DNA of 64,000 bases from the NCBI GenBank assembly GCA_043228905.1, contig JBHGNT010000020.1:4774001-4838000 (forward strand), written 5' to 3'. Position 1 is the first letter of the stretch. Every line of letters begins with the position of its first letter. Below are positions 11,101-59,150 of this stretch, one piece after another. The translations under genes and the position numbers were made by a program. The notes under the pieces were generated by a model. It ran no database searches. It saw nothing but the letters and a program-made list of their open reading frames with translations, and was not told where the DNA came from. Source of the DNA: Azolla caroliniana (lineage: Eukaryota; Plantae; Polypodiophyta).

Positions 11101-12294
11101 TTAAATAAGACGATTTATGCGCAAGGAGAAAGGGAAGATGAAGATTCCGGAATATGGCATCGAGGCCGAAACGTCGGATTGAAGTGAATCCAACACGGCT
11201 AGAAGCAATGAAGAACCTCTAAAAACAGGGTTGAAATCGGCCGAGAGGGCCACAAAATCGGTGAACCAGAAGTTGCGTTGATCCACCTGCCAAAAAGAAT
11301 CCCGTAATTTGGTACAGGTACAATGAGTATATGGCACATCATTATGCATATATGGCGAAGGTAGCAAATGTGCGTGAGCCGGAAAGCTACGTAGAAGCGG
11401 CCAAGGACACGAATTGGCATGCTACTATGGAGGAAGAGATGAACGCGCTAACAGAGAATGAGACTTGGGACCTGGTTGACGCATCCAAGGGTGTGGGTGT
11501 GAAGCCTATCGGATGCAGGTGGGTGTACAAGATCAAGTACAACGCCGATGGTTCCGTCAACCAATATAAGGCCCGATTGGTGGCAAAGGGCTACACACAT
11601 AAACACGACATCAATTACGATGAGACCTTAGCGCCGGTCGCGAAGATGGCAACTATCCGTGTATTCCTGGCGGTAGTAGCGGCAAAGGGGTGGCACTTAC
11701 ATCAAATGGATGTAATGAACGTGTTCCTACAAGGCGATCTTGAGGAAGAAGTGTACATGGTACAACCCCCCACATTTCTATTTGAACGAAACACCTCGAT
11801 TGTTTTCCAATTGAAGAAGTCGTTGTATGGACTGAAACAAGCCCCGTGTGCCTGGAAAACGAAGATCACGCAAAGGTTGCATAAGATGGGGTTTGCTCCA
11901 TCAAAATCAGAGACTTCACTATTCATTCGGCCGAGTCGAACTAGACCGTTTAGCCTTCTGCTATATGTCGATGATCTAGTCATCGCTAGTGCCGACCTTG
12001 GAGAAATCAACTGAGTAAATGATGAGAAACGCATGGAATATCGCTCAGCCACAACCGAGTAATAAATCACTTCTATAAGAATCAAACACAGAAATGGGAA
12101 GTGGAGAGTACACAAGAAAAATGACACAGGATGTTTACGTGGAAAACCCTAATAGGGAAAAACCACGGGAGCCCACAGACTCCGAACTATCACTATGAAA
12201 AGAAGGGGTACAATTAGAGACTCGGAGGCAACAACCTCAAGCTCTGTTTCCTCGCATAGTGGTGGTTACAACAGAGTATTGCTCTGTATCTCTT

Positions 12295-12339
<45 letters not shown>

Positions 12340-15116
12340 GTCGCTCTCTCTATACAACGGTTACAACAACAATAACAACCATACTAAAGTGATTGCCCTA
12401 AGTCATATTTATACTTATATGAACTTAGGGCTATTTACAAATATAGCTTCAATGGGCTTACTCAGAAACATATTTACAGATATGTCTTCTACATCCGGTT
12501 CTCACCGGGTCTTCTATATCCGGTTCTCAAGATCCCATCCGGAGGGACTGAAATCCCAACAATCTCCCACTTCACTCTAGAATGGGATGTTTCGTCAACC
12601 TGATCTGTGTCCGACATGCGTCCAGCTTGTCGGGTGTAAGCACTTTGGTCAGGATGTCTGACCCGTTCTCCTCCGTGTGGATCTTCATTAGCACGAACTC
12701 TCAATCTTCAACTCGCTCCCGGATCCAGTGCTACCTGCATTGGATGTGCTTCGTTCTTGAATGGTAGGCCGCGTTCTTTGCAAGGTGGATGACGCTCTGA
12801 CTATCGCAGTAGAGCCGGTGTTCCTCTTGTTGGATCCCTAGCTCACCAATGAAGTCCTTCATCTAGATTATTTCCTTGCCGGTTTCCAACACTGCCATGT
12901 ACTCCGCTTCCGTGGTTGACAACGCAACCGTCTTCTGCAGCCTCGACTGCCACGAAATAGCTTCCCCAGCATAGGTCATGACATATCTGGATGTAGACTG
13001 GCTGGTATCCGCATTAGCCGACATATCTGAATTCGTGAATCTGTCAAAATGGGGTTTACCGGAGCCGAATTAGAGGCACATGCTTGAGGTGCCTTTCAAA
13101 TACCGGAGTATCCACTTGATCACGTTCCAGTGCTCTCTTCCGAGATTGCTCATGAACCAGCTCACCACTCCGACTGCATATCCGATATTCGGCCGGGTAC
13201 ACACCATTGCGTACATCAAGCTCCCGACAACAGAGGCATATTGTATCTTCATCATATTCTCCGTCTTTGCCTTTGTCCTCGGGCTCTGCTTTCCGGTTAG
13301 CTTGCAGTTTGCTGGAAGTGTCGATCTGACCGGTTTCGCGTCCGACATGTTGAACCGTTGAAGCACCTTCGTCGCATACTTTTCCTGTGACAAACACAAT
13401 AGCTTTTTTGGCCGGTCCCGGATGATGTGCATCCCTAGTATATGTCTTGCCGGACCCAAGTCTTTCATTGAGAAGGTCTGGTTAAGGGCCTTCTTCAACA
13501 TCCGTATCTTGACTTGGTCTCGTTCGACAATCAACATGTCGTCCACGTACAGGAGCAATATTAGGAAATCTCCTCCATCAAATTTCTTCACAAACACGCA
13601 GTGATCGGCCTGCGTCTTGTGGTACCCTTAATCGGTCATGAAGGAGTCAAACTTCTGGTACCATTGCCGGGGAGCTTGCTTCAGTCCGTATAAGCTCTTC
13701 TTCAGCCGGCACACCAGGTGCTCCTCCCGTTTCTTCTCAAATCCTTCCGATTAATGCATGTAGATATCTTCTTCGAAGTCTCCATGTAGGAATGTCGTCT
13801 TGACATCCAGTTGCTCTACCTCGAGGTCCATGCTTGCTGTTATGCCCAAAACCGTCCGGATGGATGTCATCTTTACTACCGGGGCAAAGATCTCATCGAA
13901 ATCCACTCCTTTCTTCTGCAGGAAGCCCTTCACCATGATTCAGGCCTTATACCTTGGTGGATGTCTGGTGTCTCCCGGTTTCAGCTTGTACACACACTTG
14001 TTCCGGAGTGCCCTCTTTCCTTCTCTTTCCTTTCAGCAACTCCACCAATTCGTATGTGTGGTTCTCATGTAGGGAATCCATCTCATCCTGCATGGCACTC
14101 AACCACTTGTGGCTGTGGGTGTCTCCTCTTGCTTCTTCAAAGCTTTCCAGCTCCCCCTCATCGGTTAGCAACACATGCTCTACATCCGGAAATCTTCGGG
14201 GGGCTCTTCTCTCCTAGAGAGGATATCTCCGTCCTTGGTTTCTGACTGCTGGTTCGTCCGTTTGTTCCTCATCCTCATCCGATTTGGGATCTTGTCCGGT
14301 TCCGGTGTCTTCTTCTTCTTCTTCTTCGGTCGGTTCGGTTTCCTGTCCGTATCCGGCCGGTTCATCGAGTGCAATCCGGTTACCGGCTAACATCCGGTTT
14401 TCAACCGGGTATATCCTTTTGTCCTCAGGCTGGTTTTCAATGGATGATCCGGAGTTTGTTACCTTCTTCTCCGACTCCCAGTCATCAATGGTCCTGTCTT
14501 CCATGAAGACTATGTCCCGACTTCGGAACACCTTTTTGTTGACCAGATCCACCCGGTAACCGAAATCATCATCGTTGTATCCAAGGAATATGCATGGTCG
14601 GCACTTCGGATCCAACTTTGCTCTCTTGTCCTTTGCCACATGTAGGTATGCGAGACACCCGAACACCTTTAGATGCCGGTAAGACATCCTTACCGGTCCA
14701 TACTTTCTACGGTGAGTCTCCGTCCAAGGGTACTGAGGGTGATCTGTTTATCACATAGGTCGTCGTCGTCAACACCTCAGCCCAAAACGTCTTGAGTAAC
14801 TTGGCATGTGCGAGCATGCTCCGAATTCTCTCCATTATGGTCCGGTTCATCCTTTTGGCCAACCCGTTTAGTTCCGGCGTCTTCAACACGGTGAATTAAA
14901 GCTGGATTCCCTTTGACCGGCAATACTCCTCGAACTACCCCCGATATTCTCCTCCGTTATCTGCTCGAACCACCTTCAGCTTTCAGCTGGTTTCTCTTTC
15001 CACTCTTGCATGGAGCTCCTTGAAGACGAATAGCACCTGATCCTTCATTTTCAACGGCAAGACCCACAGCTTTCGGTTGTGGTCATCTATGAACATCACG
15101 AAGTACTGCGATCTGG

Positions 15117-16644
15117 TGTCAAGAATAGTACTAAAACAAAGAGAGAATTGGTACTAGAGAAGGGAAGTACTATTAGTACTAAGACAATGGGATTGCGTAA
15201 GACTCCCGAGAGGGAGGAAAGAGAAGAAAAGAGAAAGAGAGAGATATAGTGAGGACGAGAGAGAGAGAGAGAGAGAGAGAGGGATGACAATAACAAATGA
15301 TATATTATAGGAAGAGTAAGTACAAGATGGCTATGAGGCTTAAGATTGGCGTTGAACCAATTTGGTTCAACATAATGCCTAGTGCCTTCTTTTATAGTGC
15401 TCTTAAGAGTAATCCTGAAGCTTCTAGAATGTTCCCAAGAAATCTGGAATATACATTAATTTCCTATAATAAAACTTAAATGAAAATAACATCCTACGTA
15501 TTACAATAGATGGTATAGTGGTCAAGAGCTCGACCCATATAACATAAGGTCATGGGTTCGAGTCTTGCCATATCATGACACTATCTCTTCCTTAAGATGA
15601 CGAGTGGAACGAGTCGGCGCTGATTGCGGACCGGGTTTGTTCGGATACTTTCACTGGAACTTTGCAAGAAGATCCTGAGCATTGGCGACATGCTCGACCA
15701 AGTACGTTCGCTTGGACTATAGCTAAGCCAATCGACCAAATAATAAAGTTTGTTGCGAACAAGTTTGGAATCGAGGACGGCAGCAACTTCATACTCCATG
15801 CCGGATTCCAACTCAAGCGGAGGTGGCGGTGGTGTAACACGATCGGGAATAGTGTTTGCTTTGTAAGCTTCAAGAAGAGAGCTATGGAAAACCGGATGTA
15901 TCTGAAGATGCGGAGGGAGATCAAGGCGGAACGTGACATCATTAACCTTACTAGTAATATGGAAAGGACCGAGTCGTCCATAATCCAACTTGTCGCCCGG
16001 TCGAGTGGTCTTGATGTGACGACGTAAGAGCCATACGTGAGAGATCCATCTGGATTTTGCGTAGCCTCTCGAAATGATCCTCGGCACGAGGATTGGCAGG
16101 TAGCTCTAGGGTGTCGATCACTGACCAGTGAGGATGAGAACCGATGTAAGTGTAAAATGGGGAAACCCTAGTCGAGGAGTGAACAACATTATTATATGCA
16201 AACTCTGCAAAGTGGAGAATCTCGGTCGAATCGTCCTATTGATAACTCAGAAAACATGGGAGATATTGTTCCAACGTTTGGTTTGTTCGTTCTGCCTGCC
16301 CATCGGTCTGGGGATGGTAGTTGGAGGAGAGGTTTCAAGAGACCTTGAGCATCTTGAAGAGATGCTGCCAAAATTTGGAGACGATTTGAGGTCCTCGGTC
16401 ACTGATGATATTGTTTGGGAGGCCATGATGCCGAAATACCTCACGCATGACAAGGGCAGCGGTTTCCTCGCTAGTGATGGCCTTAGTACACGGCACAAAA
16501 TGTGCCATCTTCGTATATCGATCGACGACGGTTAAGATAGCATCGAACCCCTTCGAGACCGGCAGATGGCATTATGTTATATGGGTCAAGAGCTCGACCC
16601 ATATAACATAAGGTCATGGGTTCGAGTCTTGCCATATCATGACA
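15117..16644 (-). mobile_element. Internally deleted chromovirus Gypsy (LTR 15117-15580, INT + chromodomain, ~70 bp 5' LTR stub)
   Basis: TSD TCTGG/TCCGG. PPT AAGGAAGAGATAG. ORF 15581-16087 has GPF...HPVFH and chromodomain YEVAAVLDSK...YYLVDW. Confidence 0.9.
15511..15569 (+). promoter_or_regulatory. tRNA-like Pol III A/B box module at LTR 5' end (antisense to LTR)
   Basis: TGGTATAGTGG (fits TRGYNNARYGG) at 15511 and GGTTCGAGTC at 15555. Confidence 0.7.
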
Positions 16645-19600
16645 TCCGGCATGTGACTTCGTGTCCACTTGACACATCGGTATGCACCAGCTCTAGTGCT
16701 GCATTTCGTCTCATCGGTGGTCTTGACCAGAAGGAGGTGCGATTTTGCTTGCCGGCCAAGCAATCGATGCACTTCTCAAGTTGCACGTCCTTCACTGGAA
16801 TGAGGTTGTCTTTGGCAAGCCTCTTCATCCCCTTCTCACTCATGTGACACAGTCTTTTGTGCCATAGCTCACCGGTAGTGTTGGACGCTACGTTCACTTC
16901 TTCCCGGCGTATCCGGGCATTCATCAAGTACAATGTATTGACCTTCTAGGCTCGAGCCACTATTAAGCTCCCTTTGCAGAATTTCATGACATCGTTCTAG
17001 TTGCTGCCTGTGTAGCCTTCATCATCTAACTGACCGGCTGATATCAGGTTTAGTCGAACCTCCGGAACGTGTCGGACATCCTTCAGTAGCAACTTGCATC
17101 CGGTTGATGTCGTCAACAACACATCTCCTATGCCGATAATTCGGCATGTCCATTCATTTCCCATCCGTACACAACCGTGCTCACCGACTGTGTAGGATGA
17201 GAAGCATTTTCGGTCCGGGGTAAGGTGGAACGATGCTCTGGAATCGACAACCCATGTTGTCTCGTCGATGACAAGGTTCAACTCGCTCTCCTTGGTGATG
17301 AGCATTAGTTCTTCTTCACTTGCTTCGATCGCCGTCGTTCCCTTCCGGTCCGGGCCTCGCAGATCCGAACCGTTTCGGTCCGGTGACTTCTTCGAATTGG
17401 TACTGTCGGTTCTGTTGTCCTTCCTGAAATGCCGATAGTTCTTCTAGAAGTGCCCCGGCTTGCCGCAATAGAAGCAAGTGGGCCTCCCCCTTGACTTTGA
17501 CTGTGTCCTCGACTTTTCCCGGTTCTGGGGACTCCGATTCCTTTGTCTTCCGCGTTCCGATTCGGTAAGGAGGGCTTTGGCGTCGGAGATCACCTCCTTG
17601 TCTTTCCAACGTGCCTCATCATCTAACAAGCTCGACTTGACTCTTGCTAGGGATAGTTGTTTTCCTTCCAGCCCGGTGTTGCCCAACGTGATAACTAACG
17701 TCTCCCAGCTATCTGGGAGAGAACCGAGCAGGAGTAGAGCAAGTACCTCATCGGCGAGAGGTACTTCCAACGAGGTTGCTTGGTGTATCATCCTCGGAAG
17801 GCATTCATGTGCTCCGCCATACTGGAGCCGTCTTGGTACCGGAGCCTCACTAGCTTCCGGAATAACAAAACCCGATTAACAACATTTTTGTTCTGAAACA
17901 TAATGCCCTCCCAGAGCTCATGAGCCTTGCTCTCTTCATTGAAGTTGTTGTACAAGCTCATGTTGATGAAGCACCGGATGTATGCCGTTGTCTTCATGTG
18001 CATCACCTCCCACACCATGGCATTGATCTTGTCCGGTCTCTTGTCCCCGAACTGAACCAGCAACCAAAGATCTTTAACCAACCACCAGCATGTCCCTCAT
18101 CTTCGACTTCCACACTGAGTAGTTGGAGCCAGTGAGCTTGAACATGTCGCCGTAAGATTCCTCCATTTTCTGTGTTGCTTGCTCTGATACCAGTTTGATG
18201 AGAAACGCACGGAATATCGCTCGGCCACAATCGAGTAATAAATCACTTCTATAAGAATCAAACATAGAAATGGGAAGTGGAGAGTACACAATAAAAATGA
18301 CACAGGATGTTTACGTGGAAAACCCTAATAGGGAGAAACCACGGGAGCCCACAGACTCCGAACTATCACTATGAAGAGAAGGGGTACAATTAGAGACTTA
18401 GAGGCAACAACCTCAAGCTCTGTTTCTTCGCACAGTGGCGGTTACAACAGAGTATCGCTTTGTATCTCTCTCTCCCTCTCCCTCTCCCTCCCTCTCTCTC
18501 TCTCTCTCTCCCTCTCTCTATACAATGGTTACAACAACAATAACTACCATACTAAAGTGATTGCCCTAAGTCATATTTATACTTATATTAACTTAGGGCT
18601 ATTTACAAATATAGCCTCAATGGGCTTACTCAGAAACATATTTACAGATATGTCTTCTACATCCGGTTCTCACCGGGTCTTTTACATCCAGTTCTCAAGA
18701 TCCCATCCGGAGGGACTGAAATCCCAACAGTAAAGTCTCAACTTGCAGCATCATTCAAAATGAAGGATCTAGGGTACCTTCATTACTTCCTCGGGATCAA
18801 AGTGATCCGAACCCCTGAAGGCATATTGATCAGCCAACGCCATTACATGTTGAATATGCTCATCAAGTTCGGGATAGTAGAATGTAAGCTCATCTCAACC
18901 CCTTTAGACGGAAATGTGAAGCTTCGCCACGGTTCGGGAATGTCGTGCGACCAGACATAGTTCTGACATATTGTCAGAAGCCTCATTTACTTGACAATCA
19001 CTCGACCAGACCTCAGTTACCCAATCAACTTGATCAGTCAATTCATATCGCAACCAAAGGCCGAACATGTTTACTGCATGCAAAGGATATTCCGATATGT
19101 TAGCGGCACTAAGGAAAGAGTGTTGTTGTATCGGGCAGGAGTAGCTTATGAGTTAATCGGTTACACAAATGTTGATTGGGCCAGAAATGCCAACGATCAC
19201 GACTAAACATCCAAGTTTACGTTTTCTTTGGGAAGCGCTGCAATTGCTTGGAGCAGTAAGAAGCAACCGACAGTAACACTGTTGAGCACTAAGGCCGAGT
19301 ATCGAGGGGCGGTTGTTGCTACGTGTGAAGCCATTTGGCTGAAAAGGCTTTTGAAGGATTTGCACGTAGAGGTGTCCGAGCCAACAATGATATACTGTGA
19401 CAACCTCAGCAACATCCAACTTATGAAGAACCCCGTCTTCCATGCCCGGACAAAGCATATCGAAGTGCACTATCATTTTGTCTACAAACAAGTCCCCTTC
19501 GGAGAAGTCGAACTTCTTCATGTCCCAACTGATCGGCAGGTGGCTCATATCTTCACCAAACCTCTTGGCCTAGACAAGTTGTGGCATTTTTCGAGCATGT

Positions 19601-21365
19601 TTGGCCTACAACACCTCGATATGCTGAACTTGAGGGGGAGGAGTGAAGTTGAAAATGAGAGAGACGAAGTCCGAAAAGCCGACCCAGATGAAGAATTCGA
19701 TTTCGGCCCAAATGAAGAAGTTGGAATGTTCAGATCGGCTAAAGAACGAGAATGCATGGACTGATGGAAGAAGATCGGCTAATCGAAGGATAGCGAGATG
19801 TTGGAGGAGTGGCTGAAAAAGAGAGCCGAATCCAGAGCCAACTGAACCAAGGGGAAGTGAAGCCGGCAAGGGCAAGAAAGATGGCAGAGTCAAAAAGGAC
19901 AAAGCCGATCGACTGAAGCCAAGAGCAAGACATAGGCAGATGTGGTCGAGGGCCAGAAAGGGGACGAATCGGAGACAACTGATTCAATTGAAAGTCAAAG
20001 TGAATCAGAAGTAACCGATTCAATTGAAATGTTTGATTTGGAGGAGCCGAATCGACTGGCCAAGCAGACGAGAAGGCAGTTGAAGCCGATGGTGAGACGG
20101 AGGAGCCAACGGGTCTAGGGGCGCCAATACCGTAGTAGCGAGGGAGTTGAGAAGGGCCAAAGCAACAGACAAGCCGACCGTAGAGGTCGAGGTGCACGAA
20201 ACCAAACAAGTCAAAAAGCATCAAATCGCAGGGGCCGTGGGACGCCGAACCAAACTGGAAAAGGAGCACGAGTGAGGCAACATGACGATAGGAGAAGAGG
20301 CTGGAGTGACAAACCAATGGGAATTGACACGGAGGGACCTCAAGTTGAGCTTGAGGGGGAATGTTGAGAGACAAGCTCAATAATGGGCCAATTCGGCTGA
20401 AGAAGCTGAGAACTGAGAACTGAGGGCCGAAGGCCATGAGCTGGGGATTCAGTTGAAGAAGCCGAGAACGCCGAGGGCCGAGGGTCGTGAGCTGAGTAGG
20501 AAGGTTTCCGAAAGGCCGTTGAGGGTCTATATTCCTACTATAGTAAATAGGAATATTGTAGACAAATTTAGTGTCAAGCTCATTTATGAGCATATTTAAG
20601 TACTGACGGTACTTGTGTCAGCCCACTTGTCAAGGGCTTGTATAAAAAGTGCTCATTGAGCACAATGCATGTACAAGGTTTTCATTATTCGAAATAGTTT
20701 TTGTTTACTACTCTCTCTGTTGGCTGGCAAGACCAAAGGGCCGGTTAGAGTCTAGAATGTGAAAAGGGTATTAGTTAAGGATAGGGAGTTGCTATAGATA
20801 AATATTATGTTATTTTGAGAAGATAAATATTATGCTATTTTGAGAAGCGGGCGGACGGACCAGAATCGGTATGCCGATTCGGATCCGAACCAGATCGTTG
20901 TCGGCTGCCGATTGGCACCGGTTTGTAACTCAGTCGGAGACCTATAAAAGGACCCAACAAGAATGTAATCAGGGATGGATAATTAATAGAAGCGTTGTTG
21001 TTTTAAGTATTGTTTAGTGTCTATTTGGTTACCGTCCTATACTTAATATCATTAATCTTACGCGTGTGTTACGATCATTAACAATGCCGATTACTAATCG
21101 ATTAAGACCCATTTGATACCATGGTCCATCCATATCTCACCATACCACCCTTTGGGGAAGTGTTCCATAGGGACACCCTATGTTAGGGCTTGTCCAGCCT
21201 AAAGGATAACATAGTTTTTCCCTGATTACATTCTTGCCGGGTCCTTTTATAGGTCTCTAGCTGAGTTACAAACCGGTGCCAACCGGCAATCGGCAATGAG
21301 CCGGGCCGGACCCGAATCCGCTTCTCAAAATAACATTTGTACGTCGAATCCATGGTTAGCCCTTT

Positions 21366-24076
21366 TCAATTGTCTGTCAAAATGTCGAGAATGATTTGGT
21401 CTAAGGGTTCTAGAGGTTCTTCGGGTAGTTGCTCCGTTTGTTGTGGTGGTTTGCTATTGCTGTTGCTATTGCTCTCCGACCTGCTCTTCCTTTCCGGCTC
21501 CAGTCCCTTCCAGGCTTCCGTCTCCGGCTCATTTGTTTTGGACTCCTCCTCCTCCTGACGTCCGGCTTGCACTGACTCCTGCGGGTTCGGCTGCTACACT
21601 TGAGTTACATTTGGCTAACTTCCTCCGGTTTCGACTGCATTCGGCGTCTGTTCCAGAGAGTGCTCTTTGTCACTAATGTTAATTGTCATCGTTCTTCTAG
21701 CCATTTGTTGTCTCTGCTCCCGTTCATATCGCTTGAACTGAAGTTGGGTATCCAGCTGGTCGTCATCCAGCTGTTCCACCAACCAGCCCACCGCCACCAA
21801 ATGCTCTCCGACCAAGGACAGGAAGTCATCCGTTAACTCCTCCCGTATGGTCACAACGCTTTCTGCGTCCATTTTGTAGAAGTTATCGCTATCCTTTTGC
21901 TGGTTCTCCACATTTGTTCGCAGGACCTACAACTTGGCTGCCTGCTTTGCCCATTTGGACCACCACTGTACTGAGCTTTCTTCAACTAGCCTCCTCGTCC
22001 GGTCCCTCCATGTAAGTACAATGTCTCGAATACGGCCAAGTCCCATCTTTGACTTCTCCTCCGTAACCTACTTTTCATCCTTTAATTGCTTTATGAGGAT
22101 CGTGGTTGCCTCAACTTGTCCTTGATATGGCATCAGTTGCGTCTGATAAGTCGTCTAAACTCTATTCAGAGCCATCTTTGCTCGTTCCATCTCTTGATGA
22201 TGCTGCCGGGTAAGCTCTATTTTGTCCTTCGCCACTTCTGCCAGCATCTTTCCCGCTTTAACTCCCTGGTCCTTTATTCGCCAATGCCGATGCCGTCCTG
22301 TTGACATCATCCTAGAGTTCCCGCATTTTCTGTTGCTGCCAGTCACCTTTTGTCATCAATTTCTTGTGTTCCGCCGCTAGGTTCTTGTGATCCTAGTGCA
22401 ACCTGTCAAAATCCTCCATTTTTTGTTTCAGCCTTTGATTGACTTGGCGTCAGGCCCGGTTCTCACGGTCCTTTTGTTGCCGGAGTTCTTCTTGGAGCCG
22501 CTCAATCGCTACTTCCGCTGATCGCTAGAGTTTGTCCTTTTCTTGCAACAACTTTTCTTTTTCTTCCTTCAATCGGTCATATGCTTGATGACCCGTCCGT
22601 AGATTGTCCTCGGCTCTTTGGAAGTTCTCTGCCATTTTCCGTTGTTCCTCCTCCGCCACCTTCTTCAAGTTTCGTTCCCTAGCCCTTAAGGCCTCTTGGG
22701 CTGCTAATTCCTCTCTGAGAGTGGCAAGTTCTTATTCTTGTGCCTTATTTGCATCCGGTGCTATTTTAGTTACCGACATCTTATTGGTCTGTTCATTCAC
22801 CGTAGCCACCGGTTCTGGTAGTATTGGTCCTTCTATGACCTGCTTAGCCGCCTCTGCTTCGGCCTACACAATTTCTTCTTCCATGCTCCGGATCCTTGAC
22901 CGGGCTACGCTTCTAGCAATGTAGGAGGTTATCGGCGAGGTCTTCCTCCACCTCCTCCTCTTGGGTTCTGATATTGAACTTCGTTGCCAAGGGTTCCGGT
23001 TCTTGTTCTTGTCGGCGCAGCTTGATTTTAAAGGGCCTTACTGGTGGCTCCACCGGTGTCTTTGTCTCTCCTTGTCTCTTCCGGCTAGGCGGTTCTTTCC
23101 CTTGCTACGAGGTACTGCCCTCTTTCCATCTGGGCGTGCGCTTGGCCAGGAGTTGCTACCGTTTTGAATGTTTGTTGGGCGTGGTCTCCGTTACTCGAAC
23201 TCATTTCTTCGTCTTTATCGGCTCCACCGGGGCCGCCAAGAGAGTCAGTCATTGAGCCACGACCGTCCATAATAATTTCTTGCCATTCTACACTGATTCT
23301 ATCGCCGTTCGCAAGCAATCTGTGATGATTACCGACCAATCCACTTGCACCGTGTATGTAGCAATGATGAAACCGGCTTTATTCTTGGGCATTGCCGGGG
23401 GTCGGGGGTACACGAACCCATACTCGTGGAGGACACGAGCCACTTCTCTGAATAGGGGGTCTTCACCACCCTGTGTCCGGTGAGCCTTGCTGGTGAGGGA
23501 ATACTCACCAAAAAACTTGGTTAGCGTTTCAGGAGAAGGGTTCTTGATGGAGTATATGCCCCCTTCCGGCAATCCGATTAGATTGCGGATGGCTTCCTCC
23601 ATTATGAATTCTGTGTCGATTTTAAGCACGATTTTGGTCCTCGCCACCCTGTATCCAGTGAGCCTTGGTGGCGAGGGAACACTCGCCAAAAAACTTGGTT
23701 AGCGTTTCAGGAGAAGGGTTCTTGGAGTAGATGCCCCCTTCCGGCAATTCAATTAGAGCGCGGATGGCTTCCTCCGTTATGACTTCTGTGTCAATTTTAA
23801 ACACGATTTCTTTTGCCTCGTCGTGCAGCGGTGCCTCTGCTATCCTCAGGAAGCCTACCAACCCATGTTGGTTGAACCACTTCTTGGCTGTTTTGAAAGT
23901 GCCATAGGTTCCATCTCGTGGTCTGGTTCTATGGGGGTGGGCAGGGCCGATGTGTTTGTATGTGCTTCTTGCGTCTGTCTGCTTACTTGTATTGTCCTTT
24001 GTGCGCTCAATGCTCTATGTTCGCGAAATGAGAGAGGCTCTGCGAGGCGGAGGTTTCGTGTTCCCATGCTTGGCAC
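21366..24076 (-). pseudogene. Degenerate additional (3') ORF of the Gypsy element: globular domain + long coiled coil
   Basis: Co-oriented ORF fragments downstream of integrase (23288-23689, 21615-21911 and others), E/K/R/Q-rich. Internal ~180 bp duplication at 23500-23810. Confidence 0.55.
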
Positions 24077-26055
24077 CTTTCTCGATTCCCACGCATGCTC
24101 GTCGTGTACTATAATAGCAATTGTGTGACACGTGGTGCACTTTAACTAGGCTTTAAATAGCCACTACATGCCTTTTCGAGGTGTCCGTTCGCTCCTCGCC
24201 TCTTCATGATGATTTTTTTTTCTTCTTCTAGTTCTGATTACCCAGTAACCCTGGCTCCATTGTCTGTTTTTCTTCATGGTTGCCGGCCAACTGCTTGCTG
24301 CTGCCTATTTCCGCATTGTTCTTCGGTTGATGAAATGGGTTCTGTGGCATGGGTCCATAATATGGTTTAAGTCGGAACCCATTTACCCACTTGTCCAGCA
24401 CCTTGCCGGCTAGCGTTCCCAGCTGATATGAGCTGTTGAACTCTCGCGTTATCCAATATGGTCCGGTCCATCAGAACCGTAGCTTCCTCGACATCTTGCC
24501 CATCCGGGTTTGGAACACTAGTACCGGCTTGCCGATTCCAAATGTCTTCTCATTACCCTTCCGGTGGTAGTTGACGAATGCTTTCCGTCGTCGTTGCTCG
24601 AGTTCCATCTGCATTAGGCTCGCTATTCGGTGCTCCTCTAGCTCGCATAGTGCTGCTAACTGGATTTTTTCTGACTCCTTCTCGCTCAGCTGGTCCCAGA
24701 CCTGTATCCATAAGCTTGGAATCTGGAATTCTATTGGCATCACTGCTTTGAGACCAAATGCTAAACGGAATGGTGTTGTCCGGGTACTTGTTTTGTATGC
24801 CATCCGGTAAGCCCATAATGCGTTGTGCAACTTTGTATCCCAATTGGTTCGGTTCTCATTGACAATCTTCTGGAGAATATTTTGCAGAGTTTTATTGGTG
24901 GATTCGGCCAATCCATTGGCCTGCGGGTAATAAGGGGTGCTTCGCTTGTGTACGACCGCATAAAATGTTGTTAGGCTTTCCACCACTTGGCCGAGGAAGT
25001 GTCCACCTTGGTCGCTGATTAATTCGATTGGACATCCATACCAACACCAGATGTACTTGTATAGGAACTTTGCCATCGACGTCGTGGTATTGTCACGTAG
25101 TGCCTTGGCTTCCACCCATTTTGTACAGTAATCTGTGGCGACAATTATGTACCTGTTGCCGGTTCGCATTGCCGATGGCTTTAATGGTCCAACGAAGTCC
25201 AACCCCCATTTCTGGAATGGCTCTAGAGGTAGTACCGGCTGGTGCGGCATGCGTGCTTGTTTCGTTGGCTGGCCCATTCTTTGACACAGATCACATTCCT
25301 TCGTATATCAAACCGAGTCCTTTAGTGTCGTTGGCTACCATAAGCCGCAACGCCATATTTTCCTTGCCGTAGCTTCTCCGGCATAATGTCCTCCGACGAC
25401 CCCACAATGCACTTCCCGTAAAATGGTGTCTTTTTCATCACTCTGGACCACTCGCCGCCATATGCCATCCGCTCCTTTATGATACAATGTATCCTGCACT
25501 AGACAAAAGTGTTGGTTTACACCACCAACCGTTTACGTTCATCCTAATTCATCTCTTCTGGGGGTAGTCTGGTGCTTAAGAACTGGTGCATGATCGTTAG
25601 CCATTTGTCCTCTTCCGCGACCATCCCCTCTACCATGGTTTCCGTTGCAATTTTAAACAATTTGGCATCCGTAAAGTCATCTTGAACACCATCATCGGTC
25701 TCTCTAGATTCTAACCGGCTCAAGTAATCGGCAACCGCATGTTGTATACCTGACCAGTGATAGATCTCAAATTCAAATTCTTGTAATAATAATGTCCACC
25801 GAGCCAGGTTGCCGCTGAGTGATGCCTTTGAGACCAAGTATAAAAGCGTTGAATGGTCTACATGGAATGAAAACTTGCAGCCCAACAAATAATTATAGTA
25901 TTTGGTGACACTATATATCATTCCTAGGGCTTCTCTTTCCATAGTGGAATAATTTCGCTCTGCCTTTGACAGCTTCCGGCTAGCGTAACACACCAGCCGG
26001 TACCACTTAGGTTCGGTAAGTTGCATGATTATGCTGCCGATTGCGATATCTGACG

Positions 26056-26645
26056 TGTTATCGGCCGGTAAAGAAGGCTTAAGGAGTTCCAAACCAAAGT
26101 GTGAAAGGAATAGTTATTCAGGAACTGTTGTAATTAGTAGTCTTAATATATACATATTATTATATAAGAAGATGCGGACGGATGGACCGGAATCGGTATG
26201 CCGATCCGGATCCAGAACGATTCCGTAAAGGTGCCGGTTGGCACCATTTTGTATTTCGCACCGGAGACCTATATAAAGGCCCGGTTACAATGTAATCAGG
26301 AGCGGATAATTAATAAAGCTTATTGTCTTAATCTTCAAGTGTTGATTACCGTTCTATATTTATTGTTATATCTTACGCGTGTTAATTACGGATGGCTAAG
26401 TAATCGATTAAGGTCTAATTAAGCGTTGTGCCATAAGTCATTCTGTCGTACCACCCTTTGGTGACGTGTCTTGAGTGGACACCCTGTGTTAGGCTGTTGT
26501 CCGGCCGACTCCGATCCGTCCGTCCACATCTTCTTATATAAGAATATGTATATATTAAGACTACTAATTACAACAATTCCCGAATAACTATTCCTTTCAC
26601 ACTCTGGTTTGGACCTCCTTAAGCCTTCTTTACTGGTCGGTAACA
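26056..26645. mobile_element. LTR-derived fold-back element with ~141-bp terminal inverted repeats
   Basis: TGTTA...TAACA with TSD TGACG (26051-55, 26646-50). Arm 26056-26196 is the reverse complement of arm 26505-26645. The body is homologous to the LTR at 20718/30455. Confidence 0.9.
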
Positions 26646-29600
26646 TGACGCATCCATGAAGACATGGAACTCTTTTGACCAGTCCAGGGGTTGTACCACT
26701 GGTGCTTGTGACAACATTACCTTGAGTGCGTGGTAAGCCTTGTCCTCTTCATCAATCCATTTAAACAGTGTCCGGTGTATAGCTGCGTGTAGTGGCGTGG
26801 CGAGGTCTTCCAAGTACCAGAGCATTTGGTTATGCCACTGGATCTGTCCTAAGAACCGGCTTAACGCCTTGGTGGTCGTCGGTGCAAGTGCCTGCAAAAT
26901 AGCCTTGACCTTATCCGGGTCCACGACAATCCCCAAGGCCTTATCCGGGTCTACAACAATCCCTTCCTTGCTAATAATATGACCCAACAATGTGTCGTTG
27001 GTCACACCGAAGACGTATTTTGCCGGATTTAAGCTTAACCGGTATTCTCTACACTTTTCCAAGCATAACCTAAGATGATCGAGATGTTCCCCTTTCCGGC
27101 TATATACCGCGAAGTCATCCAGGAATACCTCCATAAATGCCAGTATGAATTCTCCAAATACTTCCATAATAATCCTTTGAAAGGTTGTCGGCGCGGTCTT
27201 GAGTTCGAACATCATTACAACTGCTACAAAGACTCCCCCCCATTCTGTCACGAACGCCATCTTTTCTTGATTGTTCAGGTGCATCCTTATTTGGTTATAT
27301 CCGTTGAAACCATCGAGGAAGCTATAAACCTCGTGCCCGGTTACCGCATCTAAAACCCCATCCGTAAACGGAAGCGAAAATGCATCAGTGACCATTGCCG
27401 CGTTCAATTTCCGGTAATCCACACAAACACGGATCTTGCCGTTCTTCTTCGGCACTACGACAATTGGACTTAGCCAAGTGGCTTTCTTCACCAGCCGGAT
27501 AAAGCCGACTCGAATTAGCTTGTCAATTTCCTCCTTTACTCTTGCCGCGTAGTTTGGGTTCATCCGATAGCATTGTTGTGACACCGGCTTCGTGTCCTTG
27601 CTAAGGTGAATCTGGTGTTGATAGAGTTGGGGGTCAAGTCCCAGCATATCTTTGTAGGACCAGGTGAATACGTCCCGGAATTCTTTTAATAATGTTATCA
27701 TTGCTGATTTGTCTTCTGTTGGCATCTAGTTGGGACGCCTTTACTCATTTAGATACCGCCATTTCTCATTCTAAGGCCTCCTGTGTTTGCCGCAGTTCTC
27801 GGATTGCTTCCTTATCCGGTTCCTCACCGGCCTCTTCCGTTTGCACAATGTATGGAGATACCGCTTCTGCCACGTCCACTTCGAACAGAGGGACGATCCT
27901 TGGTTTTTCTTTAAGGTAGCGGTCCACCTCCTTGTCGGCTAGTCCTGCCAGCATGTTCATGCTTTCGGCATATAGTGGGGTTACATCTTTGCCGGGGCCT
28001 ACTTGCGGTTGCGTGGGTACTCTTACTTTCATTTTCCCTCTTCGAAACGTAATATTGTTCTTCTGCCAGTTCTTTTTGATACGGGCAGTCCTCAGCCATG
28101 GTCGTCCTAACAGTAGTGGGTATGCCCCTTGAGCATTCAGCTAGAGCACTACCATAGAAATTCAGAAAGCATGATCTCCGATCGTCACCTCCAAGTCCCG
28201 GATCAAGCCGGCCGGCCGGACTGAGCTGGTGTCCGCCATCCGGAGCCAGAATGGGTATGGTTCCCACTCCTAAATTCCCAAAGTGTCGCATGTTCGGAGG
28301 CTTATCACGTTTACTCCTGATTCGCCATCGACTATCGTAGCTGGTAGCTCCTGTCCTTTAATAATTGCAGTGATTGTAGGACTGCTAGTGTCCACCACTA
28401 CCGGTCCTTCCTCCGGATTTGAAAAGAGTGCCGAAGCCGGTGCAGGATTTAACGGAGCCATCGCCGACTTCAACCTGTCGGTGAACCGGGGCACTAGTTG
28501 CAGTAACCGGCCCAGTGGTAAAGTGATTTGGCCTTCCTGAAGTGCTTGCCACGTGGGGTTCTCTGGCTGTGCCTTTACGGTGAGTACCTCCACTGTATTC
28601 GTGTGCTCTTTCATTTCGGTGACATTGCGTTCATTGGCCTTTTCAATCCATTCGGTGGTTTGTTTTTGTATGGCCTCTTGTGCTTCCCACTCCACCGTCT
28701 TTCCTTTTGATATGGTGGTGACTTGCTTTATATCTGCTACTTCTGCTATCACCATATTGACTACCAGTCGTTTTTCGTTACTTTTAACCGGACATTGGTT
28801 GCTGTAATGGCCTTCCTGGTGGCAATAGTAACAATATGCCGTCCTGGTATTGCTAAATTCTGGCAATAATCACCGTTATAATCTTGGTTCCTATCATACC
28901 GATCCTGGTCATAAGCATCCCTTCTTTGGTTGTAATCCTGGGAGTAGTCCCGTTCATACCGATCTCAGTTGTAGTCTTCCCTACGTCGGTCGTCGCGATC
29001 GCACCCATAGTTGTAGCGTCTTCTATCATTGTACCGATCCCCACATTCTAGTCGGTATGAGTCCTCCCTCCGGAACCGTTCGTCATCCGGTTCGTGACTG
29101 CTTCCTGGTTCAATGATCCGTACCGGTGCCGCTTGTTGGTTGAGCAGGTTGTACTCGCATCGGTCTGTTGTGTGTGCCCGTGAGTGGCAGATCATACACT
29201 GCGTCCTCATTGTGCAGTCTACCGTCGAATGGCTTGAGTTTAGACACGTTGTGCATTGCAACGCTTGGCGAAACCTGAGATCCTCCTTATTTGGAAGGGC
29301 CCTCTATAGGGATCCCATCGTCATCAGGGAGCTATGTTTATCCATTTCCCGCACCCGATCGATGACTTGATCCATTGTGCTGGCATGGAAATCTAGTACT
29401 GCACACATCGTTTGGAGGGGTTCCCGTAGAGTGGCCAGGAACACTACTTTCACGTCCTCGTCCGGTGGTGTCCTTGTTAACTGGTTGTGTAATGTTTGAA
29501 ATTAGATGATAAATTGGGGCACTGTCTCTTGCTCCTCTTGGTGGGTTGTGTAAAATTGACCGACTAGTTCGCGTTGTTCCACTTGCCTATGGAATAGTCA

Positions 29601-29874
29601 GAGGAATTTCGTTTTCAAGCCCTCAAATGTGGCAAAGCTTCTGGGTAGGTGCTTTGCGTGCCAGCGGGCCGCCGGTCCCTCTAATGTCATGCCGAATTCG
29701 GCCCTGTTCGACTTCCGGTTCAGTCAGCCTTCCGGACACATGATTTGCTTCCCATGTTTGTAGGAACACATAGACGTGCGCCTCCACGTCAGGGTCATCA
29801 CAATACTTCGGATACGGATATGGCATAGTGTAGTCTTCGGGAGGTTGTACCAGAGATATGTGGTCTAGTTCTTG

Positions 29875-30045
29875 CATTGCGGGTGGTGTTGGTGTACAGT
29901 TTTCCACTTCCTCTGCGGGTGATGTTGGTGCAGGGTTTTCCACTTTCTCCGTGGGTGGTGTTGGTGTAGGGTTTTCGGCTGTCTTCGTGGGTGGTGTCGG
30001 TGCGCGGTTTTCAGCTTTCTTCGCGGTTGGTGTTGATGAGTTGTT
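29875..30045 (-). repeat. 33-bp in-frame tandem repeat in gag (ENPTPTPP-like)
   Basis: About 5 copies of GGTGGTGTTGGTG...GTTTTC at 33-nt spacing. Confidence 0.8.
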
Positions 30046-32936
30046 CGATTCGTCGTCCTCTGGATCGTCCGGAGTATCGTGGCTGCTTTTGTAATTCGAC
30101 TAAATGCTCTATTCACTATCCGATTCTGACTCTAAGGTTGAGAATGCCTCCGAGTCTCCATTGCCTTCGGCAAGCATCCACAGTCGTGATTTTGCCTCTT
30201 GCAGGCTCATAAGACTACTGCCCTCATTGGAAAGTTGTTTTTGGAACCGAAGTGCTTCTTTTGTGACCCTCCGTAGCACTCTAGGAAAAGACCGATCCTG
30301 TCGGATCTCTTCGGCCGCTTGCTGGAAGGCTTGCCGTCTTTGTTGTCTTCCGACTAGTCTTCTTCCTTGTTCGGTGACTTGGTCATTAGTCGGTCGAGAC
30401 ATCCATCCCCCGGTGTTCTCTGTTCATTGCAGGAATCGTGGTTGCCAAAAACTGTGTTATCCTTTAGGCTGGACAAGCCCTAACACAGGGTGTCCCTATG
30501 GAACACTTCACCAAAGGGTGGTACGGTGAGATATGGATGGACTATGGTATCAAATGGGTCTTAATCAGTTATTAATCGGCATTGTTAATGATCGTAACAC
30601 ACGCGTAAGATTAATGATATTAAGCATAGGACGATTACTGTAACCAAATAGACACTAAACAATACTTAAAACAACAACGCTTCTATTATTTATCCGTCCC
30701 TGATTACATTCTTGCCTGGTTGTTTTATAGGTCTCCGGCTGAGTTACAAACCGGTGCCAATCGGCAACCAGCAACGATCCGGTCCGGATCCGAATTGGCA
30801 TACCGATTCTAGTTCGTCCGCCCGCTTCTCAAAATAAAATAATATTTATCTTCTCAAAATAACATAATATTTACCTATAACAACTCCCTATCCTTAATTA
30901 ATACCCTTGTCACATTCTGGACTCTAACCAGCCCTTTGGTCTTGCCGGCCAACACTCTTTGTCTCTATCTCTCTCTCATACCATTCTCTGTGATTACCTA
31001 ACTGTCGAGTTTCTGTAACTAAATGTGTACTTGGTTCGGTGTCTATCACACATGCTTCCGCACATGTATTCCTTTTCATTTTTGAAATAGAGTTTTCATC
31101 TTCTTGCTCTCATTCTGTCTCTCTCTCTCACCCACTCTGTGTGTCTCCATTGTTCTCTGTTTCTATCCGGCTACCCCGGTTGTGATCTGTTACAACTTCA
31201 TGCATATTTTCTTTTACATGATATCAAAGCGCGAGGGTTAGAACATCCTCTGCTGCCGGCAAGAGATCTACATACAGACAAACCCTAACTTTCGGAGAAG
31301 AACAAATGAGACGAGAAATGAACAGAGGAATGTGAAGCTCACATATGATGGAGAAGCTTGATAGGAGCAACTACGCATCTTGCTCATATAAGATGCACCA
31401 ATACCTAGTAGGGGATGTGTATTGGAGTTATGTTATTGAGCGACAAGCACAACTGGATCTAGATCGGCTGAATAAGCCTGAGCTGGATCATAGCCGAATC
31501 CGCATCCGGAAGGATGAGCCAGATCGGTATTTGGAAACAAGAGTCGGATCAGGGAGACGGATTAGAGAGCCGGATTTGAGTGTGAACCGGAAGCCTAGTC
31601 GTAGCCTAGACTACTAGGTAATCACTGTCTTGTAGTTAGTGTCAGTTGCACCGCACGTAGGAATGTTGAAGTACCTATCAATACTTCTGTCAGTCCTTTA
31701 TGGACTTGTATAAAAGTGCTCTCTGAGCACATTCTATGTACACAAAGTTTTAGACTATTATTTTGAATAGAGTTTTTTGTTTTGTTGTCTCTCTCATGTG
31801 TATGCTTATTCTTTGTGTTAAGCTTCCATTAAACCTTCTTCTCTTTATTGTTACTATCCGGAAGAGCCGGTTTGGCATAAGCTTCCGCACGCTAACTTTG
31901 ACATGGTATCAGAGCGTGAGGGTTGAGAACCTCTGCAACTGACAAACGCTTTCGACGACAAACCCTAATAACCGGTAACAACAGACAGAGAAAGGTATGG
32001 ACAAAGGTATGGCGAGTTCACTTCCAACAGAGAAGCTTGATCGGAGCAACTATGCATCTTGGTCATATAAAATGCACCAGTACTTGCTACGGCATGGTTA
32101 TTGGAGCTATGTGGAAGGAACCACTGAGGTAGCACCGGAGCCGGCACACAAAGACTTCCCGGCATGGGAGCAAGGAGCGAGCTGAGTATTGTACTGTCTC
32201 ACGTCTGGTGTGCATGATCAGATGCTCAGCTACATCAAAGATGCAAAAATGCTAGAGGCCTGGGAAAATCTTCGGAAGATTTTCACCGCGAGTACCACAG
32301 CCCATAAGTTGCAACTCCGGCAAGAGCTGAACAACATCCGACAAAGAGACATGTCGGTTACGAACTACACCATCAAGGTAAAGGAGATTTGCGACGCACT
32401 CGGGTCCATCAATGTGACAATGGACAAAGATGAGATGGTTCAAAGATGCCTTGGTGGTCTAGCACAATGTTACGGGCCAATCCAAATGGCAATCTGCACA
32501 TGGGAGAAGCCACCGTCCTTCTTCAACTTACAATCAATATTGACGGTCGAAGAAAACCACGTGAGTGAGTCGAGGACCACTCAATCGGACAACTGGATGC
32601 TGTACACGGAAGAGTATCAACCCCGTGGTCGTGGAGGACGAGGTGGGTTGGTACGCAATGAAAGCGTCCGGCAAGAGCAGAACCGAAGGCACAGAGACAA
32701 TGTTGACAGCAGTTCCAGACCCTCCACAAGCAGGGGGAGTCAAGTCGGAGCTGGAAACTGGCAGTTGAAAGCCGACACAAAATGTTGGTATTGTGGCAAG
32801 AAAGGCCATAGAGAGAGAAAGTGTTGGAAGAAGCGTGCCGATTCGGATAAATCCGGATCCGGCAAGGTTGGACAAGGGAACTTGCAAAAGTCGCACTACA
32901 CAGAAGGATCGAAGGATCAAGAACCTAGAAGACCGG

Positions 32937-51131: not shown

Positions 51132-51164
<33 letters not shown>

Positions 51165-51240
51165 CTCTCTCTCTATCTCACACACACACACAGTTCACAC
51201 CTATTCCGCTTCACAAGAATCCATCTCTTGATTCTTTACA
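45865..51240 (+). mobile_element. Near-intact Copia (youngest-looking in window)
   Basis: LTRs 45865-46256 and 50847-51240 are highly similar. TSD CTAAT, PBS TGGTATCAGAG at 46257, PPT GAGGGGGCA. Gag-PR ORF 46419-47951, then INT/RT/RH with a few frameshifts. Confidence 0.97.
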
Positions 51241-58354: not shown

Positions 58355-59150
58355 GCCGCCACTCTACACTGAGGGGCCGCTACTGTGCGTTCCAAGCATC
58401 ATCAAAGAGCTGCTCAATCTGACGGGGTTCTCTTCTCTGTGACACTCTACACTCAGGGGCCACTACTGTGCATTCCAAGCATCATCAAAGAGCTGTTCAA
58501 TCTGACGGGGTTCTCTTCTCTGTGCCACTCTACACTCAGGGGCCATTACTGTGCGTTCCAAGCATCATCAAAGAGCTGTTCAATCTGAGGGGGTTCTCTT
58601 CTCTGTGCCACTCTACACTCAGGGGCCATTACTGTGCGTTCCAAGCATCATCAAAGAGCTGTTCAATCTGAGGGGGTTCTCTTCTCTGTGCCACTCTACA
58701 CTCAAGGGCCGCTGCTGTGCGTTCCAAGCATCATCAAAGAGCTGTTCAATCTGACGGGGTTCTCTTCTCTTTGCCACTCTACACCCAGGGGTTGCTACTG
58801 TGCGTTCCAAGCATAATCAAAGAGCTATTCAATCTGACGGGGTTCTCTTCTCTTTTCCACTCTCACTCAGGGGCCGCTACTGTGCGTTTCAAGCATCATT
58901 GGTAACTGTTCAATCTGACGGGGTTCTCTTCTCTATGCCACTCTATTCTCAAGTGCCTTCTATGTGCGTTTCAAGCATCATCGGTAACTGTTCAATCTGA
59001 CGGGGTTCTCTCCTCCATTGCCATCATTCTATACTCAGTTGCCACTACTGTCCAGTTCCGGATTGCTTCCACATTTCGATTTGACGGAGTTCACTCATCC
59101 AACGGCAACATTCTACACTCAGTTGTTGCCATTGGTCGGTCTTGGATCGC
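58355..59150. repeat. 83-bp tandem array (~8 good copies, then degenerate) upstream of transposase B
   Basis: Near-identical ORF starts at 58385, 58468, 58551, 58634, 58717 and 58800. Confidence 0.95.

What the first reader, a model, noticed from the sequence alone, without database searches (positions are those of the whole stretch)
20718..30954. 10-kb Gypsy bounded by inverted rather than direct LTRs
Seen: 20718-21211 is the reverse complement of the 5' LTR 30455-30954 and includes the few spacer bases up to the PBS (TAGTTTTT). It then joins an antisense U3 piece (21219-21335) about 32 nt downstream of the TATA box, roughly the U3/R boundary. The host Copia LTR continues on both sides with CTCTC/CTCTT. 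Inference: a plus-strand strong-stop DNA primed minus-strand synthesis, giving a U3-U3-ended cDNA that integrated in one event. It is the same LTR group as the 26056 fold-back, so this lineage may be prone to snap-back integration.
Basis: partly seen in the sequence, partly recalled or inferred. Interest (0 to 1): 0.72.

Follow-up and report, generated by a model that had tools for sequence, protein, structure and literature searches.

The report
Retrotransposon inserted with two left ends
This dead 10-kb plant jumping gene has its two end repeats facing each other instead of in tandem, although its family is built normally, so it is likely a one-off copying error that the element's insertion enzyme still pasted in by two identical ends.

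Summary
The inverted LTR pair is real: 34 substitutions in 502 aligned bases around a decayed Ty3/Gypsy element. The family is normal. A relative (L001) has the LTR in direct orientation, preceded by a tRNA-like site instead of a PPT. The two arms are sisters (27 shared differences from L001, 15 private each) and no more diverged than the arms of a younger insert nested inside. The left arm ends at the LTR-PBS spacer with no tRNA copy, the end described for second-round plus-strand strong-stop DNA in Ty3, and not at the CA an integrase would leave. It joins antisense U3 32 nt past the TATA box. Best reading (0.65): one aberrant reverse-transcription product, integrated by two U3 ends. Weak points: the TSD is 4/5 in a CT tract, host continuity is only suggestive, and no shown contig bridges the key joint. 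Lineage-wide proneness is not shown. This scan noted similar two-U3-end insertions before, in other genomes and once elsewhere in this one; six literature searches found no description.

The parts
20362..20717 (+). Host Copia LTR, first part; follows a polypurine tract at 20353 and carries a TATA-like box at 20639
   Evidence: RVT_2 upstream at 18592-18960; 71% to related Copia LTRs at 31682 and 38344
20713..20717 (+). Left copy of the likely 5-bp target duplication (CTCTC)
   Evidence: weak, lies in a CT tract
20718..21211 (+). Left arm: complete LTR (U3-R-U5) pointing into the element, inverted relative to the 5' LTR
21212..21219 (+). LTR-PBS spacer plus the first base of the PBS; no tRNA copy; joint J2 at 21219/21220 with 1-nt overlap
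   Evidence: family contigs continue here with the PBS (table 7)
21219..21335 (-). Remnant of the original 3' LTR: U3 positions ~115-258 with a 26-nt gap; TATA first T at 21251
21336..21355 (-). Joint J1 and the surviving first half of the family's tRNA-like plus-strand site; the second half and the U3 start are deleted between 4-nt repeats
   Evidence: alignment to L001; bridged by a single-copy contig in run X1
21370..24100 (-). Broken extra 3' reading frame(s), no Pfam family; holds a 177-bp tandem duplication at 23458-23809
   Evidence: its end matches the frame end in L001
24471..25307 (-). DDE integrase core (rve)
   Evidence: PF00665, E 3e-10
25454..27725 (-). RT and RNase H, split by the nested insert; 3 stops in the part after the insert
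   Evidence: RVT_1 E 2.7e-20, RT_RNaseH E 6.6e-26; tblastn
26056..26645 (+). Nested 590-bp fold-back insert of a related family: near-complete LTR plus 141-bp inverted U3, exact 5-bp duplication TGACG
   Evidence: family contigs lacking it in X1 and X5 with 5 letters fitting both sides (table 5)
27766..30100 (-). Broken gag/protease region (by position and by similarity to L001; only a sub-threshold zinc-knuckle hit)
30432..30454 (-). 7-nt spacer and primer-binding site
   Evidence: same in L001; assignment to tRNA-Arg is recalled and from earlier scan notes
30455..30954 (-). 5' LTR of the element
   Evidence: outer junction bridged by contigs in X1 and X5
30955..30959 (+). Right copy of the likely target duplication (CTCTT)
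30960..31078 (+). Likely second part of the host Copia LTR: CT tract, then CTTCCGC at 31055, then CA
   Evidence: motif spacing fits, alignment not significant (18 of 300 shuffles as good)

Best explanation
This is a dead Ty3/Gypsy copy of a normal direct-LTR family whose 3' LTR end is replaced by an inverted full LTR, likely made in one faulty round of reverse transcription and likely integrated as one piece by two U3 ends. Shown: the anatomy, the normal family, the sister relation of the arms, and the two joints. Inferred steps: (1) after the tRNA primer was removed, a repeat round of plus-strand synthesis gave a free U3-R-U5-spacer strand, as described for Ty3; (2) its 3' end jumped, on one base of overlap (or on an A tail), onto a plus-sense template ending near the U3/R boundary of the 3' LTR and copied it back through the coding region to the 5' LTR; (3) fill-in gave a duplex with U3 at both ends, which integrase trimmed to TG...CA and inserted with a 5-bp duplication; (4) the inner LTR lost two further stretches, before or after insertion, and the fold-back insert arrived later. 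The copy is predicted to be unable to move again.
For: Family normal: L001 has frame end, tRNA-like site, LTR, spacer, PBS and gag all in direct order; family contigs continue after the spacer with the PBS in 4 of 4 runs (10, 13, 7 and 8 contigs). Arms are sisters: against L001, over 467 columns, 27 differences are shared and 15 are private to each arm, in both U3 (8 shared) and R-U5 (19 shared); 19 of 30 private changes are C>T or G>A. Both arms carry a 25-bp duplication that L001 lacks. At 13 of 32 left-arm sites checked, both arms carry an allele that is in the minority by X1 depth (from 40 of 157 rows shown). Internal clock: the nested, necessarily younger insert has arms differing at 12 of 141 sites against 34 of 502 (Fisher p 0.46); two direct-LTR elements in the window give 27 of 534 and 8 of 392. 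The left arm ends at spacer plus one base, matching Ty3 second-round strong-stop DNA, which stops at the end of U5 once the tRNA is gone and is then displaced (PMC5371799, passages); it does not end at CA as an integrase joint would. The other side of the joint is 32 nt from TATA. Host: the left flank ends and the right flank starts in a CT tract, and CTTCCGC (8 copies in 64 kb, both strands) follows 95 nt on, against 92 nt in a related LTR. One TSD mismatch has a 30% chance at this age.
Against: The TSD is 4/5 and 10 of 32 neighbouring 5-mers match as well. Host continuity is not proved: the right half aligns weakly to the expected part of two relatives (18 and 119 of 300 shuffles as good) and about as well in a wrong register to one (9 of 300), and MAFFT chose the wrong register. 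Two members of one young subfamily would also share the arm characters; only one full outgroup LTR was available, possibly from another species. None of the 32 pieces shown (of 4,234) bridges J2 or the left junction. The overlap at J2 is one base, so priming cannot be told from end-joining. The U3/R boundary is predicted from TATA spacing only. The inner U3 piece differs from both arms at 8 of 98 sites (arms: 7 and 4 private) and carries the L001 allele at one site where the arms agree; this fits a sister template or parallel change and is unresolved.
Confidence: 0.65

Rival explanations
1. One insertion, but formed by tail-to-tail joining (ligation or hairpin capping) of an LTR-long DNA to the U5 end of a complete cDNA. 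This gave a 500-bp perfect palindrome, whose inner arm then lost three stretches (R-U5, the 26 nt and the J1 stretch).
For: All three losses lie in the inner arm, as expected when a palindrome breaks its symmetry (general knowledge). It also predicts the unprocessed spacer end and sister arms. Earlier scan notes describe LTR-internal-LTR plus inverted LTR in another genome (e1-9560544, not tested here).
Against: The loss would have to start exactly at the palindrome centre and end at the predicted transcription start, with one base of overlap; nothing in this model picks that place.
Confidence: 0.15
2. Two separate insertions of sister copies in opposite orientation, followed by a deletion from the PBS of one to the 3' LTR of the other.
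For: The left arm looks exactly like a 5' LTR cut at its PBS. The TSD and host continuity are weak. The window is a dense nest with other deletions. Arm divergence (6.8%) is above that of both direct pairs in the window (5.1%, 2.0%).
Against: It needs two sister copies, both breakpoints at reverse-transcription landmarks, and outer flanks that happen to fit one host LTR position with 4/5 identity. The arms are no more diverged than those of the younger nested insert.
Confidence: 0.12
3. Rearrangement after insertion: a replication or repair template switch copied the 5' LTR, inverted, over the 3' end of a normal copy.
For: It would also give sister arms.
Against: The switch back to host DNA would have to fall exactly on the TG end and leave the duplication in place.
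Confidence: 0.04
4. A family that normally has inverted LTRs and replicates that way (DIRS-like, with the inner U3 piece as a working part).
For: Both elements of this LTR group in the window have two U3 ends.
Against: L001 is direct; depth over J1 is 177 against thousands in most LTR bins in X1, so that joint is private; the integrase is DDE-type; the two window elements have different joints.
Confidence: 0.02
5. Assembly or library fold-back artefact.
For: J2 and the left junction are not bridged by any contig shown.
Against: The arms differ at 34 sites with symmetric, transition-rich change; the right junction is bridged in X1 and X5 (two studies) and J1 in X1 (X1 may be the source sample).
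Confidence: 0.02

Closest known systems
Plant non-chromovirus Ty3/Gypsy elements, OTA-like with a 3' extra frame (Neumann et al. 2019, PMC6317226; passages)
   Same: RT-RH-INT order, PBS after the 5' LTR, TG...CA ends, 5-bp duplication, extra 3' frame; nearest named RT hits are from a fern and a liverwort at 47-62% identity.
   Different: This copy has inverted LTRs; the family has a tRNA-like site instead of a PPT. No tree was built, so no clade is claimed.
Ty3 repeated plus-strand strong-stop synthesis (PMC5371799; passages)
   Same: The second-round strand ends at the end of U5 without a tRNA copy and is displaced as a free strand, as the left arm would require.
   Different: In Ty3 it anneals to the minus-strand 3' end through R-U5; here it is joined end-on to a minus-sense copy that starts near the U3/R boundary.
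Template-switch complex insertions of Triticeae, rice and maize (Sabot and Schulman 2007, PMC1950507; part 1 of 2 read)
   Same: An abnormal reverse-transcription product integrated as one unit, recognised by one TSD and similar outer LTRs.
   Different: Those have three direct LTRs and two internal regions, with one U3 and one U5 end.
Ginger DNA transposons (Bao et al. 2010, PMC2836005; passages)
   Same: A Gypsy-type integrase between terminal inverted repeats starting TGT. The paper suggests Ginger1 TIRs came from two opposite LTRs of two insertions and calls the chain of events unclear.
   Different: Ginger TIRs are 40-270 bp with 4-bp TSDs in most families and no RT; here the inverted LTRs likely arose in one step and there is no sign of cut-and-paste movement.
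Autointegration inversion circles (PMC7197481; passages)
   Same: Particle-borne products with an inverted part between LTRs.
   Different: They are circles joined by integrase; an integrase joint should fall at the processed CA (general knowledge), while this one keeps 8 further bases.
DIRS-1 (PMC3950715; start of abstract in search listing)
   Same: Retrotransposon with inverted terminal repeats.
   Different: DIRS uses a tyrosine recombinase and inverted ends are its normal form; here a DDE integrase and a direct-LTR family.

Membership tests
Ty3/Gypsy LTR retrotransposon | RT, RNase H, integrase in that order | tested here: met
   (13 frames of the element among 26 of 56 listed frames scanned)
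Ty3/Gypsy LTR retrotransposon | Two direct LTRs | tested here: not met
   Inverted in this copy; direct order in relative L001, so the family meets it and this copy is an aberrant member
Ty3/Gypsy LTR retrotransposon | PBS after the 5' LTR | tested here: met
   tRNA identity recalled, not tested
Ty3/Gypsy LTR retrotransposon | PPT before the 3' LTR | tested here: not met
   L001 has a split tRNA-like end there; Rfam gave no hit on it; deleted in part in this copy
Ty3/Gypsy LTR retrotransposon | TG...CA ends with 5-bp TSD | tested here: inconclusive
   Ends met; TSD 4/5 in a CT tract
OTA / Athila / Tat clade | RT-RH-INT tree position and presence of aRH | not tested
   No tree or aRH model run; only one RNase H was seen by Pfam
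DIRS | Tyrosine recombinase instead of DDE integrase | tested here: not met
   rve hit, no recombinase hit in 13 frames
DIRS | Inverted ends as the family's normal form | tested here: not met
Ginger | No RT/RNase H; TIRs of 40-270 bp | tested here: not met
   RT present, arms 500 bp
Ginger | Cut-and-paste movement of TIR-bounded copies | not testable with these tools
   No whole genome held
Template-switch complex insertion | One TSD and outer LTRs from one round | tested here: inconclusive
   Sister arms met; TSD weak
Template-switch complex insertion | Third direct LTR between two internal regions | tested here: not met
Autointegration product | Internal joint at the processed U5 CA | tested here: not met
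   8 bases beyond CA are kept

The most novel reading that the evidence does not exclude
The PPT-less, tRNA-site-primed Gypsy lineage of this plant sheds free plus-strand LTR DNA so often that it repeatedly integrates copies with two U3 ends. In one step this makes integrase genes bounded by long inverted repeats, the missing intermediate proposed for Ginger DNA transposons, and inward-facing promoters whose hairpin and antisense RNA could silence the parent family.
Probability: 0.2. Interest if true: 0.75.

Novelty: new variant of a known kind. Interest (0 to 1): 0.45.

Why it matters
It is a natural record of how reverse transcription fails in the particle and suggests that a Gypsy integrase accepts two U3 ends on a 10-kb substrate in a plant. 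The joint preserves the end of second-round strong-stop DNA, which would be indirect evidence that this PPT-less lineage restarts plus-strand synthesis as Ty3 does. It offers a one-step route from an LTR retrotransposon to a TIR-bounded integrase gene, a step the Ginger paper calls unclear. LTR finders that need direct repeats would miss such copies. As a single dead copy of a shape this scan has met in several genomes, its own weight is moderate.

Tried and rejected
No whole genome is held, so no genome-wide count of inverted pairs and no LTR tree. Viral and prokaryotic collections held no family or host copies (0 loci each); the one metagenome scan gave one locus. No RNA holder listed. No empty-site joint 20717-30955/60 among the 15 of 237 joints shown, and no bridge of J2 or the left junction among 32 of 4,234 pieces shown; both outputs were cut, so this proves nothing. 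X2 falls one letter short of the 31-letter rule at the right junction. The five opposite-strand joints all link the left arm to the inner U3 piece and read as ordinary LTR deletion variants (my reading), not new fold-backs. MAFFT of host halves was uninformative. Rfam found nothing on the tRNA-like site. Look-ups of earlier findings by sequence and by nearby place were empty. PMC2939329 (passages) says only that recombinant Ty1 integrase accepts DNA ending in the proper dinucleotide; nothing on two U3 ends. The Lauermann and Boeke 1997 paper is not held; it is known here only through the review. Rejected: DIRS-like family, Ginger membership, autointegration, assembly fold-back.

Full report
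Observation. A self-comparison of the window shows 20718-21219(+) as the reverse complement of 30954-30447 at 92.1%. The alignment starts at TG on both sides and ends in the LTR-PBS spacer. It has 34 substitutions in 502 columns, 27 of them transitions, and a 6-bp indel. Between the arms, on the minus strand, lie a PBS, a broken gag/protease region, RT, RNase H and a DDE integrase (26 of 56 listed frames scanned, 13 in the element), then broken extra frames with no Pfam family. The order is Ty3/Gypsy. The nearest named RT relatives are from a fern and a liverwort at 47-62% identity; closer hits are unnamed.

The family is normal. One metagenome scan returned one relative, L001. It reads frame end, a split tRNA-like end, two bases, LTR, spacer, PBS, gag, all in direct order. 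Contigs of four public runs that end on the spacer continue with the PBS (10, 13, 7 and 8 contigs). So inverted ends are not the family's design. The family lacks a PPT, which agrees with earlier scan notes on this genome. That the site copies tRNA-Arg is recalled and taken from those notes; Rfam gave no hit.

Against L001 the inner U3 piece is the remnant of the original 3' LTR. A deletion between 4-nt repeats (J1, 21335/21336) removed the second half of the tRNA-like site and the U3 start, and a 26-nt gap follows. J1 is bridged by a single-copy contig in run X1 (21267-21424, no differences), and depth over it is 177 against thousands in most LTR bins, so it is private to this copy. The right junction is bridged in X1 and X5, two studies; X2 falls one letter short. 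X1 may be the source sample. No piece shown bridges J2 or the left junction (32 of 4,234 shown).

One event or two. Over 467 columns shared with L001 the arms share 27 differences and have 15 private changes each, of which 19 of 30 are C>T or G>A. They share a 25-bp duplication that L001 lacks. At 13 of the 32 left-arm sites taken (40 of 157 rows shown), both arms carry the minority allele by X1 depth; two of these border the duplication and may be alignment effects, and summed depth is no copy number. The 590-bp insert at 26056-26645 sits inside RNase H with an exact TGACG duplication and is absent from family contigs in X1 and X5. It must be younger, yet its arms differ at 12 of 141 sites, no less than the large arms (p 0.46). 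This fits arms that were identical at insertion. It does not exclude two members of one young subfamily.

Host site. The left flank is a Copia LTR starting at 20362 after a PPT and ending in a CT tract. The right flank starts in a CT tract and reaches CTTCCGC 95 nt on; a related LTR has it 92 nt on, near its end, and the motif occurs 8 times in the window. A separate LTR tail follows at 31079-31218 (0 of 300 shuffles as good) before a PBS. But the direct alignments of the right half are weak (18 and 119 of 300 shuffles as good; 9 of 300 in a wrong register), and the 4/5 TSD is matched by 10 of 32 nearby 5-mers. Continuity is likely, not proved.

Mechanism. The left arm keeps the 7-nt spacer plus one base and no tRNA copy. 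An integrase joint would fall at CA (general knowledge), so autointegration is unlikely. In Ty3 a second round of plus-strand synthesis, after tRNA removal, stops at the end of U5 and is displaced as a free strand (PMC5371799, passages); the left arm has that end. The partner side lies 32 nt from TATA, near the predicted U3/R boundary. I infer that the free strand jumped on one base of overlap, or on an A tail, to a plus-sense template ending there, copied it to the 5' LTR, and was filled in to a duplex with two U3 ends that integrase inserted (0.65). Tail-to-tail joining with later deletion in the inner arm gives the same sequence (0.15). Two opposite insertions plus deletion need both breaks at these landmarks (0.12). 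The inner U3 piece has 8 private sites in 98 against 7 and 4 for the arms; whether it came from a sister template is open.

Consequence. The copy is predicted dead: no plus-strand site, no sense R-U5 at the 3' end, pol interrupted. A transcript across 20718-21340 would fold into a long hairpin (-251.7 kcal/mol, z -14.6), which follows from the inverted repeat and is no evidence of expression.

Proneness. Both elements of this LTR group in the window have two U3 ends, and an unchecked note reports a third inverted case in this lineage elsewhere in the genome. None of the 15 contig joints is a further fold-back inside this LTR, and no genome is held. The claim is open.

Comparison and novelty. 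The closest described class is template-switch insertions with one TSD (PMC1950507, part 1 of 2), which keep direct LTRs. The Ginger paper proposes opposite LTRs from two insertions as the source of TIRs (PMC2836005, passages); this case would reach that shape in one step. Six searches listed no paper describing natural two-U3-end retrotransposon insertions, judged from titles and abstract starts; subscription journals are mostly not covered. This scan has noted the shape in at least nine genomes (unchecked notes). Verdict: real, a new variant of a known kind of error, interest 0.45.

Noticed in passing
L001:85-142; window 21337-21355: The family has a split tRNA-like 3' end with a small palindrome two bases before the LTR in place of a PPT, as earlier notes on this genome describe; only its first half survives in the window copy.
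   Followed up: partly
L001:1-1550: One LTR lies between a 3' frame end and a PBS plus gag: a tandem array junction or a one-LTR circle.
   Followed up: no
window 26056-26645: Fold-back insert: LTR stopping some 13-20 nt short of the U5 end, then 141 bp of inverted U3, about 2 nt of overlap at the joint, exact TSD. Summed contig depth over it is far above that of the large element's LTR.
   Followed up: partly
window 12020-18729: Minus-strand element with direct LTRs (27 of 534 differences) and a GTAAA duplication, nested in the host Copia RT.
   Followed up: partly
window 45865-51240: Younger Copia-like element with direct LTRs (8 of 392 differences) and a CTAAT duplication.
   Followed up: partly
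window 31079-31218: Tail of a second Copia LTR followed by a PBS at 31219; the host Copia likely inserted into it. The host's 5' LTR was not found in the window.
   Followed up: partly
window 2374-3573: A second, distant Gypsy-type RT-RNase H on the minus strand (35% identity to the relatives of this family).
   Followed up: no
window 53800-55047, 58358-59125, 60130-61596: Three tandem arrays; the last has units that also match their own reverse complement at 66-77%.
   Followed up: no
window 20639-21340: The host LTR's TATA-like box lies about 80 nt before the left arm and points into it, so read-through would give a hairpin RNA.
   Followed up: partly
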